A stretch of DNA of 64,000 nucleotides, from assembly GCA_963666485.2 (NCBI GenBank), contig CAXXUO010000003.1, forward strand, positions 1-64,000, in the 5' to 3' direction. A program made the position numbers and the translations under genes. This DNA is from Syntrophorhabdaceae bacterium (GTDB lineage Bacteria > Desulfobacterota > Syntrophorhabdia > Syntrophorhabdales > Syntrophorhabdaceae). This document shows positions 57,642 to 64,000 of the stretch, one piece after another (the first letter of the stretch is position 1; each line of letters begins with the position of its first letter). The notes under the pieces were generated by a model. It was not told where the DNA came from, did no database searches, and was given only the letters and a program-made list of their open reading frames with translations.

Positions 57642-57759
57642 CCGTCATTCCGGCGAAGGCCGGAATCCAGGTTTTTTTTCTTTCTTTGGGGAAATGATTC
57701 TGCCTGAAATTTGAAACCCGTGTTTTAAGCACTGGACCCCGGCCTTCGCCGGGGTGACG
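57642..57759. repeat. CGTC-tagged REP doublet (inverted pair, REPIN-like, no gene inside)
   Basis: CCGTCATTCCGGCGAAGGCCGGAATCCAG (57642-57670) and CTGGACCCCGGCCTTCGCCGGGGTGACG (57732-57759). Confidence 0.85.
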
Positions 57760-59973: not shown

Positions 59974-60807
59974 ATGCCGAAGGTTTCCGTTATTGTTACG
60001 ACCTTTAACCGGCGCCATTTCCTGCACGACGCCTTTCGGTCGGTCGCAGCGCAGGATTACCGCGACCGCGAGATAATCATCGTCGATGACGGATCGACAG
60101 ATAACACATGTGACGATGCGGCGCAGTTGCCGGCACGCTACATATGGAAAGAAAATGGCGGGATAAGCAGCGCGCGCAACGCCGGGCTCGCCATCGCCGG
60201 CGGGGAGTACATCGCGTTTCTCGACGTCGATGACCGCTGGAAGAAAAAGAAGCTCTCCACGCAGCTCGATGCCATGGAAAGAACCGGCATGCTCCTGTCC
60301 TATACAGATGAGATATGGTTCCGCAACGGCAAGAGGCTCAACCAGAAATTAAGGCACCGCAAGTACTCGGGGATGATATTCGAGCAGTGCCTCCCGCTGT
60401 GTATAATCAGTCCATCCTCGGCGCTCATCCACCGGAGCATTTTCGATACGGTCGGAACATTCGATGAATCCATGCCCGTGTGCGAGGATTACGATATGTG
60501 GCTCCGCATAACATCCCGCTACCCCGTCCTCTTCGTTGAAAAGCCTCTCATCGTAAAGCAGGGCGGCCACGCTGACCAGTTGTCGCGGGCATACGACGGC
60601 ATGGACCGTTTCAGGATCGAAAGCATCGCGCGGATACTGGGCAGCGGGGTGCTTGATCCTGTCTACGCGGAAAAAGCGGTGGGCGAGCTCACGAAAAAAT
60701 GCCGCATCTATGCGGGAGGGGCCTTAAAACGGGGAAAGAAAGAGGAAGCGGAGCATTACCTCGCGCTCGCCGCTTCGTACGCCGCTGCGGATTGCGCTAC
60801 TTCCTGA
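59974..60807 (+). CDS. GT2-family glycosyltransferase
   Basis: VSVIVTTFNR, IVDDGSTD, SARNAG, AFLDVDD, CEDYDMWLR. Confidence 0.9.
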   Translation: MPKVSVIVTTFNRRHFLHDAFRSVAAQDYRDREIIIVDDGSTDNTCDDAAQLPARYIWKENGGISSARNAGLAIAGGEYIAFLDVDDRWKKKKLSTQLDAMERTGMLLSYTDEIWFRNGKRLNQKLRHRKYSGMIFEQCLPLCIISPSSALIHRSIFDTVGTFDESMPVCEDYDMWLRITSRYPVLFVEKPLIVKQGGHADQLSRAYDGMDRFRIESIARILGSGVLDPVYAEKAVGELTKKCRIYAGGALKRGKKEEAEHYLALAASYAAADCATS

Positions 60808-61297
60808 GTTCTGCAAACATTTTATCTATATGCCCTTTGTGGGCGACCGTGTCCGAAATGATCTCATTCACCAGCGTCTGGCATTCTATATCATCCGTCT
60901 TCACGACCTCGTTGTACTTGGCCTCCATAAATGCCTGTTCGTTGTCCCGGGCAATGGCAAGGGCATTGATCAGGGGAACCTGTCCGGCAAGCATTTTCAC
61001 AGTACTCGCCTCGAGCCCCTTTATCAGGGTCTGCGCCGCCATGATATTGAACGGTCTCCCTTTCTCGAAATTCTCCGGTTTCTTCTCTATGATGGCCTTC
61101 ATTTTCTGGATGTTGACTGCGTGCTTACTTTCCTGGTCCGCGATGCCGAACCAGAAAGCCTGCTGGTGGGTAAAGACTTCGCCGCACGCATGGTAATACC
61201 CGGCAACGACCGTCTCGGTCATCTCCATGTATCCGAGGACATCCATAATTCCCTTGAGATCGCCTGCATTGAAAAGGCCCATGATCTTTATTTCCAC
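60797..61297 (-). CDS. Ferritin/rubrerythrin-like helical protein
   Basis: AAGGAG RBS then GTG; helical pattern with E...YY, FW..IADQESKH (ExxH) and later DTVAH. Confidence 0.6.
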   Translation of the reverse strand: MEIKIMGLFNAGDLKGIMDVLGYMEMTETVVAGYYHACGEVFTHQQAFWFGIADQESKHAVNIQKMKAIIEKKPENFEKGRPFNIMAAQTLIKGLEASTVKMLAGQVPLINALAIARDNEQAFMEAKYNEVVKTDDIECQTLVNEIISDTVAHKGHIDKMFAELRK

Positions 61298-61380
61298 TCC
61301 TTATTCGTCTGGATTGCTTAAAAAGCTACCAAAAGCGACACGTTAATTCAACCATAAATAGCGCACATTCCCCGTTCCCC

Positions 61381-61472
61381 CCGTCTTCCCTCTCCCTCCC
61401 CGTCTTCCCTCTCCCTCCCCGTCTTCCCTCTCCCTCCCCGTCTTCCCGGGCTTGACCCGGGACCCAAGGTTT
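61381..61472 (+). repeat. Three perfect 19-bp tandem units followed by CGTC-REP copy A
   Basis: (CCGTCTTCCCTCTCCCTCC)x3 at 61381-61437, then CCGTCTTCCCGGGCTTGACCCGGGACCCAAGGTTT at 61438-61472. Confidence 0.92.
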
Positions 61473-61623
61473 GCCTTTCGCTATCTGATATTGACTTATT
61501 CGGGACATCTCGGTAAAACTATCCAGACACACAAGGCACTTCTCGCACCGTTTTTTCACGGTAATAATTTTTTTTCATTTCCCCCAGCCATTATTTTTTT
61601 TCCGTCTCCCCGATCCTCCTTTT

Positions 61624-61658
61624 CCGTCTTCCCGGGCTTGACCCGGGACCCAAGGTTT
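61624..61658 (+). repeat. CGTC-REP copy B (identical to A)
   Basis: CCGTCTTCCCGGGCTTGACCCGGGACCCAAGGTTT; an extra head unit CCGTCTCCCC lies at 61602. Confidence 0.92.
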
Positions 61659-61757
61659 TGAATATTTTTACGCACCGAGCCACACTATATCGTGCACCTG
61701 TGCAGCCTTAAGCAGTAATTTCAAGATTACCGCAATCGCATAAACGAAAGGAGAACC

Positions 61758-62061
61758 ATGAACAAGCAGCCGTGCGTCTATATACTGACGAACAAAAAGA
61801 ATGGCACCCTGTATGTTGGAGTTTACATCGGATATCCTTAAACGTGTATGGCAACATAAGAATAGGTTCATCGCCGGTTTTACCAAGGATTATGATCTGC
61901 ATATTTTGGTCTGGTTTGAGATTCACGAAACGATGGAATCGGCTATTATACGAGAGAAGAGCATCAAGAGATGGAGGAGGCAATGGAAGTTGGAGCTGGT
62001 TAATAAGCTGAATCCCTACTGGAGCGACCTGTACGATGAATTGGTAAAATCAACAAAATGA
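61758..62061 (+). pseudogene. Small GIY-YIG nuclease (about 100 aa) with a +1 frameshift at about 61822
   Basis: AAGGAG RBS; MNKQPCVYILTNKKNGTLYVGV / TSDILKRVWQHK...FTKDY...LVWFE...AIIREKSIKRWRRQWKLELVNKLNPYWSDL; one extra T in GTTT. Confidence 0.88.
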
Positions 62062-62064
62062 AAA

Positions 62065-62243
62065 AAACCTTGGGTCCCGGGTCAAGCCCGGGAAGACGGA
62101 GGAGGAGGTGAGAAGACGGAGGAGGAGGTGAGAAGACGGAGGAGGAGGTGAGACGAGGGAGAAGGAGGTGGGAAGACGGAGAAGGAGGGTCGGAGTGACG
62201 GATAAACAAAAAGTGGGATGACGGTAGAGAAAGTGGGATGACG
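62065..62243 (-). repeat. CGTC-REP copy C (exact inverse of A/B) plus an array of about seven 19-23 bp purine-rich units, most ending GACG(G)
   Basis: AAACCTTGGGTCCCGGGTCAAGCCCGGGAAGACGG (62065-62099), then (AGGAGGAGGTGAGAAGACGG)x2 and progressively diverged units. Confidence 0.9.
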
Positions 62244-62253
62244 ACAGGCTTAC

Positions 62254-62290
62254 AAACCTTGGACCCCGGTGTCAAGCACCGGGGTGACGG
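62254..62290 (-). repeat. CGTC-REP copy D (variant, same orientation as C)
   Basis: AAACCTTGGACCCCGGTGTCAAGCACCGGGGTGACGG; same TCAA loop, with compensatory stem changes. Confidence 0.88.
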
Positions 62291-62456
62291 GCGGAGAGAA
62301 TTGGGAATGACCAGGAAAGGAAGGTTTTGTCTTTCGCGTTGAACGGTTGGACTGTTGAACGGTTGAACCTGTCTTTTCCGTCAATTGCTTGATTAATAGC
62401 GCCAACCCCTGTATATTTTCGATACGCAAAAACCCCTGTTTTAAAGGAGCCTTCAC

Positions 62457-64000
62457 ATGCCGTATGATGCGACGAAGATGGCGGACTGGGAGATATCGGA
62501 AGCCGCCGAAGAGAAGATGAAGACCATCTGGCAGCTGCGCGACGAGATGGGGCTTCAGGGAGACGAGGTGATCCCCTATGGGAAAATGGGCCGCCTCAAC
62601 TACGCCGCTATCATGGGCCGGCTTAATTCGCGGCCGAACGGAAAATATATCGATGTGACGGCGATAACGCCGACGCCGCTCGGCGAGGGCAAGACAACGA
62701 CGACGATTGGCCTTCTCGAAGGCCTGGGGAAAAGAGGCCAGCTTGTGGGCGGCGCGATACGCCAGCCGTCGACCGGGCCGACGATGAACGTGAAAGGCAG
62801 CGCCGGCGGCGGGGGAAATGCTCAGGTCGTTCCCCTGACGGAATTTTCCCTTGGCTTGACCGGGGACATCGACCGCATCATGAACGCGCACAATATCGCA
62901 ATGGTAGCGCTTACGGCGCGGATGCAGCACGAGCGCAACTATGGTGACAGGGAGTTGGAAAAGAGGGGGCTCAAGCGCCTCGACGTCGACCCCACGAACA
63001 TCCAGATGGGCTGGGTCATCGATTTCTGCGCCCAGGCACTGCGCAACATCGTTGTCGGCATGGGCGGAAGGATGGATGGTTTCACGATGCAGTCCCATTT
63101 CGATATCGGGGTGAGCTCCGAGCTCATGGCGATCCTGTCCATCGTGCGGGACCTCAAAGACCTTCGCAAGCGCATCGGCGAGATCACCGTTGCGTACCGC
63201 AAGAACGGCGAGCCGGTAACGGCGGAGGACCTCGAGGTTGCCGGGGCGATGTGCGCGATCATGAAGGACACGATCAACCCGACGCTCATGCAGACGGTCG
63301 AAGGCCAGCCGATGATGGTACACGCGGGGCCTTTTGCAAATATAGCGATAGGTCAGTCGTCCATAATCGCAGACCTCCTGGGGCTCAAGCTCTTCGATTA
63401 CCATGTCACGGAGAGCGGTTTCGGTGCAGACATCGGTTTCGAGAAGTTCTGGAACGTCAAATGCCGCTTAAGCGGCCTCAAGCCCAACGTTTCCGTGATA
63501 ACGGCGACGATACGCGCTCTCAAGATGCACGGCGGCGGCCCCCGCGTCGCGCCCGGCATCCCGCTTCCCAGGGAATATACGAACGAGGACCTGAACCTCC
63601 TCGAAAAAGGCATTCCCAATCTCCTCCACCACATCCGCATCGTCAAGATGTCCGGCATGAAGCCCGTCGTTTGCATAAACAAGTTCACGACGGACACGAA
63701 AGACGAGATCGCCCTCGTTCGCCGGTTCGCTGAAAGCGAAGGGGCCCGTGTCGCCGTCTCCGAGCAATGGCTCAAAGGCGGGGAAGGGGCATTGGAACTC
63801 GCCGATGCCGTGATTGACGCATGCAGCGAAAATGTTGAGTTCAACTATCTCTACCCCCTGGAGATGCCCCTCATGCAGAGGGTCGACGTCATAGCCAAGA
63901 ACGTCTACGGCGCCGATAGCGTCCTGTGGATCCCCGAAGCGGAAGAAAAAGCCCGCCGCCTCGAGAACGACCCGGCCAAAAGCGACTACTTCACCATGAT
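62457..64000 (+). CDS. fhs: Formate--tetrahydrofolate ligase (runs off the window end)
   Basis: [22 protein letters not shown]...[57 protein letters not shown]. Confidence 0.95.

What the first reader, a model, noticed from the sequence alone, without database searches (positions are those of the whole stretch)
61381..62312. GIY-YIG nuclease gene bracketed by inverted CGTC-tagged palindromes: a REPtron-like element without a RAYT
Seen in the sequence: two identical 35-bp palindromic repeats (A 61438-61472, B 61624-61658) point into a roughly 100-aa GIY-YIG gene. An exact inverted copy (C 62065-62099) starts 4 bp after its stop, and a variant (D 62254-62290) keeps the hairpin through compensatory changes. 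Established: GTAG-tagged REPs flank their HUH transposase (RAYT/TnpA-REP) genes in this way; as far as I recall, CGTC-tagged REPs were described without a dedicated mobilising enzyme. Inference: small GIY-YIG nucleases may be the cognate nicking or mobilising enzymes of CGTC REPs, making this an autonomous repeat-propagating unit inserted between housekeeping genes.
Basis: partly seen in the sequence, partly recalled or inferred. Interest (0 to 1): 0.85.

Follow-up and report, generated by a model that had tools for sequence, protein, structure and literature searches.

The report
Broken Ssn nuclease cassette, newly inserted
This is a frameshifted copy of a small single-stranded-DNA nuclease gene (the Ssn family described in 2025) between its hairpin repeats, at a site that is empty in related species, so the pairing is already known and the locus adds only indirect evidence that such cassettes likely move.

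Summary
In detail: A, B and inverted C are identical 35-mers, and D is a sister subtype. The pairing is not new. The gene is an Ssn nuclease and the repeats are Ssn-related motifs (CGTC REPs). Chenal et al. 2025 (PMC11893778) showed the association and ssDNA cutting, and already proposed a domesticated IS-like element. This scan has reported it before on other DNA.

This copy is a pseudogene: four contig sets of one sample carry the +1 frameshift. Three intact paralogues remain.

Added here:
- The site is empty in 8 of 8 congeners where the flanking genes are adjacent.
- A sister cassette is 75% identical from repeat to repeat.
- 12 genus copies occupy 7 neighbourhoods.
- 43 of 281 genomic repeats carry upstream half-copies; 22 of the 25 short ones have a 19-20 nt period.

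Against an autonomous transposon:
- There is no target-site duplication.
- Five repeat-rich relatives have no detectable ssn.
- One DNA strand would be cut at only one end of the cassette.

Verdict: new member of a known kind; mobility is likely, the mobilising role of Ssn is unproven.

The parts
61364..62381 (.). Whole insert (about 1.0 kb) replacing a stretch of roughly 30-50 bp between two conserved promoter-like blocks of the divergent flanking genes
   Evidence: Pairwise alignments with congeners: left conserved block ends at about 61359-61363, right block starts at 62382; junctions not resolved to the base
61379..61437 (+). Array of three 19-nt half-repeat units (tag + first stem bases + spacer) upstream of A
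   Evidence: (family D3); short unitigs over it
61438..61472 (+). CGTC REP / Ssn-related motif, copy A (7-bp stem, 5-nt loop, CCA tail)
61473..61590 (.). AT-rich spacer between A and the leader of B; no other match in the genome
61591..61623 (+). Degenerate half-repeat leader of B; with the first bases of B it is 84% complementary to 62170-62212
   Evidence: pair I3
61624..61658 (+). REP copy B, inner left repeat; its loop supplies the -35 hexamer of a promoter-like site pointing at ssn
   Evidence: 61638-61666; consensus match only
61758..62061 (+). ssn pseudogene (Ssn GIY-YIG nuclease, 100 aa read through); one extra base at codon 22 (61821-61824), premature stop at 61839-61841
62065..62099 (-). 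REP copy C, inner right repeat, exact inverse of A and B
62100..62253 (-). Array of about 20-nt half-repeat units outside C, identical next to C and more diverged further out
   Evidence: (D1, D12)
62254..62290 (-). REP copy D, second subtype (9-bp stem, one compensatory pair against its 51-copy subtype); an equivalent lies beyond the sister cassette
60797..61297 (-). Left neighbour: 166-aa protein of no assigned family, conserved in congeners
62457..64000 (+). Right neighbour: fhs, formate-tetrahydrofolate ligase (runs past the window end); promoter-like site at 62389-62417 left intact by the insert

Best explanation
This is a frameshifted ssn gene flanked by four inward-facing CGTC hairpin repeats, likely a dead daughter copy of the intact cassette 14 kb away, likely gained at this site by host recombination or repair and not by a transposase activity of its own. 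Shown: family membership, the frameshift, the empty site in congeners and repeat-to-repeat homology with the sister cassette. Taken from the published family: an intact Ssn binds the tagged hairpin only as single-stranded DNA and hydrolyses it a few bases upstream of CGTC. Inferred: the intact paralogues cut exposed single strands at the outer side of these repeats, and the breaks are mended by recombination with other repeat copies, which now and then copies a repeat, a doublet or a whole cassette to a new intergenic site and lays down the 19-20 nt half-repeat arrays. This copy stayed under purifying selection for a time and then broke.
For: Membership: 48 of 94 residues identical to the N. 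gonorrhoeae orthologue, blastp E 1.7e-39 over 99% of it; Y6, Y17, R27, E64 align with Y8, Y19, R29, E66; both lie in one starred clade. A-D match the published SRM pattern at every position but the last. Association: 22 of 25 tree-defined core homologues have a repeat within 500 bp and 17 on both sides, 2.48 per kb near against 0.15 per kb further out; 0 of 8 non-Ssn GIY-YIG genes of relatives. Pseudogene: contigs of 4 of 4 runs (one sample) span codon 22 with no gap there. Gain at this site: interval 202-294 bp without ssn in 8 of 8 congeners where both flanking genes are adjacent, 1174 bp here. Source: sister cassette 74.8% identical over 493 nt including non-coding DNA, with a D equivalent; its site is shared with congener G011; the two proteins are sisters at 100/98; pN 0.118 against pS 0.78. 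Relocation: 12 copies in 9 genomes of the genus sit in 7 neighbourhoods, and two cassette types sit at different loci in different genomes. Repeat subtype tracks the protein tree: 4 changes against a shuffled mean of 11.5, 0 of 1000 as low. No Y1/RAYT transposase in this 99% complete genome.
Against: No step of movement was observed and no activity was tested for these proteins. No target-site duplication around 79 doublets. Five relatives with 26-69 repeat matches have no detectable ssn, though four are fragmented assemblies; G034 has about 30 contigs. Only 4 of 19 more distant homologues have a repeat nearby. The 19-20 nt period is sharp in this genome but scattered elsewhere (13 of 55 repeats, periods 18 to 57). 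Synonymous sites between the sister copies are saturated, so the copy may have come in from another strain. Kin share labels, so one search does not prove co-evolution. An IS110 element that targets these repeats is present and is another recombinase candidate.
Confidence: 0.6

Rival explanations
1. Autonomous REPtron-like element: Ssn itself is the mobilising enzyme, excising and reinserting cassettes and repeat doublets as RAYT is thought to do for GTAG REPs.
For: Inward-facing repeats put the published cut sites at the outer edges; empty site; 7 neighbourhoods in one genus; 79 inward-facing doublets, several sharing inner spacers across loci; no Y1 transposase in the genome.
Against: GIY-YIG enzymes hydrolyse DNA without a covalent protein-DNA intermediate (recalled), and only cleavage was reported for SsnA. 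The reverse strand of the repeat is not cut, so one strand is cut at one end only. No target-site duplication. This copy is broken.
Confidence: 0.15
2. Domesticated host function only: Ssn restricts incoming or exposed ssDNA as in Neisseria, while repeats and cassettes spread by Ssn-independent routes (slippage at hairpins, recombination between repeats, or the REP-targeting IS110 recombinase).
For: SsnA lowers transformation by NTS-bearing DNA in N. meningitidis. Repeat-rich relatives without detectable ssn. Four identical IS110 copies all sit in REP tails. Hairpins promote slippage (recalled).
Against: Four paralogues with different repeat subtypes, patchy presence (9 of 20 genomes of the genus) and shifting loci look selfish rather than fixed. 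Many unrelated spacers share one period and one left junction near -11, which random slippage does not predict.
Confidence: 0.22
3. The gene is intact and the frameshift is an assembly error, or the cassette is ancestral here and was lost in relatives.
For: The read-through protein is well conserved (pN 0.118). All four runs are one sample and may be the source of the assembly.
Against: Independently assembled contigs of four runs show the same bases across codon 22; there is no long homopolymer at the site; 8 of 8 informative congeners are empty.
Confidence: 0.03

Closest known systems
Ssn family (SsnA, CDD cd10448) with NTS/SRM repeats; Chenal et al. 2025, Nat Commun, PMC11893778
   Same: Single-domain GIY-YIG protein of about 95-100 aa, same catalytic residues, flanked on both sides by CGTC-tagged hairpins; the paper already calls NTS-ssnA-NTS IS-like and possibly domesticated.
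   Different: This copy is frameshifted; the repeat has a 5-nt loop and fails the last position of the published pattern; four paralogues with different repeat subtypes; empty sites, relocation and phased half-repeat arrays are not in the parts I read (words 'tandem', 'empty', 'paralog' absent from the main text).
CGTC-tagged REP families; Di Nocera et al. 2013, BMC Genomics, PMC3733652
   Same: CGTC tag, GC-rich stem, 4-5 nt loop, CCA tail, one dominant inverted dimer orientation (79 of 123 close pairs here).
   Different: That paper found no dedicated transposase and does not mention GIY-YIG (0 occurrences); A-C fold with a 7-bp stem against the 8-9 bp described.
REPtron / RAYT (TnpA-REP) with GTAG REPs, REPINs and BIMEs
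   Same: Enzyme gene bracketed by inverted hairpins it recognises as ssDNA; many gene-less doublets across the genome.
   Different: RAYT is an HUH/Y1 transposase; this is a GIY-YIG hydrolase; no Y1 gene in this genome; no target-site duplication found.
IS621-like IS110 bridge recombinases that insert into REPs (recalled; named in earlier scan notes)
   Same: A four-copy IS110 in this genome sits in the tail of these same repeats.
   Different: It uses the repeats as a target and is not part of this locus.

Membership tests
Ssn nucleases with SRM repeats | Small single-domain GIY-YIG protein | tested here: met
   100 aa read through, PF01541 only
Ssn nucleases with SRM repeats | Homology to SsnA at E < 1e-10 over more than 75% of its length | tested here: met
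   Against the N. gonorrhoeae orthologue, E 1.7e-39, 99% cover; the N. meningitidis protein itself was not fetched; the stricter 60% identity criterion is not met (52%)
Ssn nucleases with SRM repeats | Catalytic residues Y6, Y17, E64 | tested here: met
   Y8, Y19, E66 in the read-through protein; the frameshift separates the two tyrosines from E66 in the real gene
Ssn nucleases with SRM repeats | Top hit to CDD cd10448 | not testable with these tools
   CDD is not among the libraries; clade placement with the Neisseria orthologue used instead
Ssn nucleases with SRM repeats | SRM hairpins on both sides of the gene | tested here: met
   A-D match the published pattern except its last position; 141 exact SRM hits in the genome against 21, 27, 35 in shuffles
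Ssn nucleases with SRM repeats | Site-specific cleavage of ssDNA upstream of the tag | not testable with these tools
   Needs an assay; this copy cannot make full-length protein
CGTC REP superfamily | Unpaired CGTC tag, stem-loop, CCA tail, high copy number, inverted dimers | tested here: met
   281 copies, 79 inward-facing pairs
REPtron / RAYT | HUH/Y1 transposase gene between the repeats | tested here: not met
   Gene is GIY-YIG; no PF01797 match in the genome, control rang in 6 of 14
REPtron / RAYT | GTAG-tagged repeats | tested here: not met
   Tag is CGTC
Classical insertion sequence or MITE | Target-site duplication | tested here: not met
   Direct 5-mer matches across 79 doublets: 56 observed against 70 +/- 13 in shuffled pairs; junctions of this insert not resolved to the base
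Mobile element in the broad sense | Empty orthologous site and copies at unrelated loci | tested here: met

The most novel reading that the evidence does not exclude
Ssn is the missing propagation enzyme of CGTC REPs, working like a homing nuclease on single strands: a break about 11 nt upstream of the tag is joined about 9 nt into a repeat stem (or at the stem's end), so that every round adds a 19-20 nt half-repeat at the hairpin-proximal end or copies a repeat or cassette to a new site. The polar arrays would then be a running record of Ssn activity, and a GIY-YIG hydrolase would drive a selfish repeat without any transposase.
Probability: 0.3. Interest if true: 0.7.

Novelty: new member of a known kind. 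Interest (0 to 1): 0.3.

Why it matters
The gene-repeat pairing and the enzyme's activity are published, so the locus as such is ordinary. Its value is comparative. The 2025 paper only proposed that the repeat-ssn-repeat unit is or was mobile; this genus gives empty sites, a daughter copy, relocated cassette types and a fixed-period footprint beside the repeats. If that footprint maps to the Ssn cut, the open question of what spreads CGTC REPs (PMC3733652) becomes directly testable with one in vitro cut map and one reporter assay.

Tried and rejected
Target-site duplication around 79 doublets: none above shuffled pairs.

Fold-back extension making the outer flanks of doublets symmetric: only marginal, mean 6.7 against 6.1 matches of 20, 1 pair at 14 or more; rejected as a general rule.

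Mapping the element's outer boundary from related repeat ends: only 7 related pairs among 182 ends, too few.

Strain-level empty site from another sample: run X5 held 1 partial read, the organism was not seen. No RNA holder listed, so nothing on expression.

Solved structures: only spurious WD40 matches. Phages: no match; plasmid collection: 34 records.

Fold of the left neighbour: pLDDT 41, unusable.

Searches were one base off the start codon and are superseded. Unit-length counts were limited to 18-22 nt by design and are not used as evidence for the period. Literature search returned irrelevant papers. No complex prediction was run.

Full report
1. Observation. The coordinates are right. 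A (61438-61472) equals B (61624-61658) and the reverse complement of C (62065-62099) at 35 of 35 bases. D (62254-62290) is another subtype; all four fold as ssDNA hairpins, with 7-bp stems in A-C and 9 bp in D. The gene starts at 61758 and ends at 62061. Read straight it stops after 27 residues; with one four-base step at codon 22 it gives a 100-aa PF01541 protein. Contigs from 4 of 4 runs of one sample span codon 22 with no gap or other letter there (one low-depth contig lacks a base at 62041), so the frameshift is real in that population. The runs may be the source of the assembly. The downstream 86-aa frame lacks both catalytic tyrosines.

2. The repeats belong to a genome-wide family. A broad scan finds 319 tagged hairpins against 24 and 29 in two shuffles; 281 pass a consensus filter, and of 123 neighbouring pairs within 600 bp, 79 face inward as here. 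Several doublets share inner spacers across loci.

3. It is a published system. My first literature search returned Chenal et al. 2025 (PMC11893778). I read parts 1-6 of 11 of the text (abstract to the nuclease methods), word passages, a term search of 12 of 14 supplementary files and file 12 whole; figures and the rest were not seen, and the review file may bear on mobility. The paper defines the Ssn family (cd10448), reports repeats near 71% of homologues and on both sides of 42%, shows site-specific cutting of ssDNA only and only of the forward strand, and proposes that NTS-ssnA-NTS is a domesticated IS-like unit akin to RAYT/REP. From the 20-nt product and the oligonucleotide sequence I place the cut 4 nt upstream of CGTC. 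Di Nocera et al. 2013 (PMC3733652; passages and section 6) is the source of the statement that CGTC REPs lack a transposase.

4. Membership. The read-through protein is 48 of 94 identical to the N. gonorrhoeae orthologue (E 1.7e-39), with Y6, Y17, R27, E64 matching Y8, Y19, R29, E66, in a starred clade of a 52-row tree (L070 and L079 dropped for length, weak hits left out except five outgroup proteins). A-D match the published pattern except at its last position. Of 25 homologues in the tree's core clade, 22 have a repeat within 500 bp, 17 on both sides and 11 as an inward pair; density is 2.48 per kb near the gene and 0.15 further out. Of 19 more distant homologues 4 have one; of 8 non-Ssn GIY-YIG genes of relatives none.

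5. Mobility. The left neighbour was found in 13 of 19 congeners. Of the 17 non-self loci, 6 showed neither neighbouring gene and look like paralogues, 1 duplicated another, 1 ended at a contig edge and 1 had no fhs within 1.5 kb; the other 8 have the two flanking genes adjacent, 202-294 bp apart and without ssn, against 1174 bp here. The insert spans about 61364-62381, between two conserved promoter-like blocks. The genome has three more ssn genes, each between repeats. The one at C3:75998 is 74.8% identical over 493 nt from repeat to repeat and has a D equivalent; its site is shared with congener G011, which is empty at our site. The window's copy is therefore likely the derived one. Between the two copies pN is 0.118 and pS 0.78: both were under selection before this one broke. 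Strong ssn matches occur in 14 of 41 relatives and 9 of 20 genomes of the genus; these 12 genus copies occupy 7 neighbourhoods. The G007 cassette matches this genome's C3:93 kb cassette and the G016 cassette its C1:77 kb cassette, each at a different locus. Repeat subtype changes 4 times on the protein tree for 23 labelled rows against 11.5 in shuffles (0 of 1000), and 2 against 4.6 within the genus (4 of 1000); labels were set by hand, one by eye, and kin share labels.

6. Phased half-repeats. Outside A and C lie arrays of 19- and 20-nt units made of the tag, the first stem bases and a spacer. Genome-wide, 43 of 281 repeats have an exact upstream copy of their first 7 bases, against 6 downstream and 2.4 at random sites. 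Of 25 with a period under 30, 22 are 19 or 20; 10 more have 34-37 (a whole hairpin plus about 10 nt) and 8 have 41-45. The left junction falls at -10 to -12 in 21 of 43 and the right at +8 or +9 in 26 of 43. Long arrays change in blocks away from the hairpin, and the first spacer often differs from the leader beyond it, which fits delivery from another repeat copy as well as local duplication. G makes up 5-12% of bases at -3 to -12 and 15-29% beyond. In other genomes 13 of 55 repeats have such copies but with scattered periods, so the ruler is not shown to be universal. An earlier scan note saw a 21-nt version. I found no paper on these arrays in searches, which cover open-access text only.

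7. Against an autonomous transposon. There is no target-site duplication around 79 doublets. GIY-YIG enzymes hydrolyse without a covalent intermediate (recalled). Because the reverse strand is not cut, a single strand of the cassette would be cut at one end only. Five relatives with 26-69 repeat matches show no ssn by protein, family or DNA search; four are fragmented, so loss or missed assembly cannot be told apart. No Y1/RAYT gene exists here, but four identical IS110 copies sit in repeat tails and offer another recombinase.

8. Mechanism. Shown: membership, frameshift, empty site, sister homology. From the family: ssDNA cutting upstream of the tag. Inferred: such breaks are mended by recombination with other repeats, occasionally copying repeats or cassettes and adding half-repeats (confidence 0.6). 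Rivals: Ssn as a true mobiliser (0.15), Ssn-independent spread with a domesticated nuclease (0.22), artefact or ancestral site (0.03).

9. Verdict. New member of a known kind, interest 0.3. This scan has filed the same system on other genomes at least six times; I had the paper before that look-up.

Noticed in passing
G000 C2:601059, C3:257904, C5:5096, C8:114309: Four identical IS110 copies (about 1.2 kb), all inserted at the same point in the tail of a CGTC repeat; already covered by earlier notes on this genome.
   Followed up: partly
G000 C3:76345-76720 and other loci (C1:1387278, C4:34424, C1:690410): Long polar arrays of 19-21 nt half-repeats, 19 units at the sister cassette; one spacer family recurs at about eight loci.
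   Followed up: partly
G000, 13 sites such as C1:25968, C1:690285, C10:43123: A conserved 12-15 nt motif, often following a truncated repeat, ends 9-13 nt upstream of a CGTC tag with a variable stretch between; possibly the end of another element.
   Followed up: partly
window 61638-61666; G000 C3:75880-75910: The loop of the inner left repeat gives a -35-like hexamer; in the intact sister a perfect -10 hexamer follows at 18 nt. The repeat may carry the ssn promoter.
   Followed up: no
window 57643-57759: A gene-less inward-facing CGTC doublet of another subtype, upstream of the GH57 gene.
   Followed up: partly
window 62338-62368: An 8-nt tandem repeat inside the right end of the insert; similar 7-8 nt tandems lie beside many repeat doublets in this genome.
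   Followed up: no
G000 C1:77445-77645 and C3:93692-93942: Tandem duplications of 100 and 250 nt downstream of two intact ssn genes; the first repeats the gene's 3' end with its hairpin.
   Followed up: no
L080 (N. gonorrhoeae ssnA locus): G-poor leaders upstream of the NTS copies and one half-repeat about 20 nt upstream, as in this genome.
   Followed up: no
window 60797-61297: The 166-aa left neighbour has no Pfam or NCBIfam match yet is conserved in 13 of 19 congeners, with apparent paralogues.
   Followed up: partly
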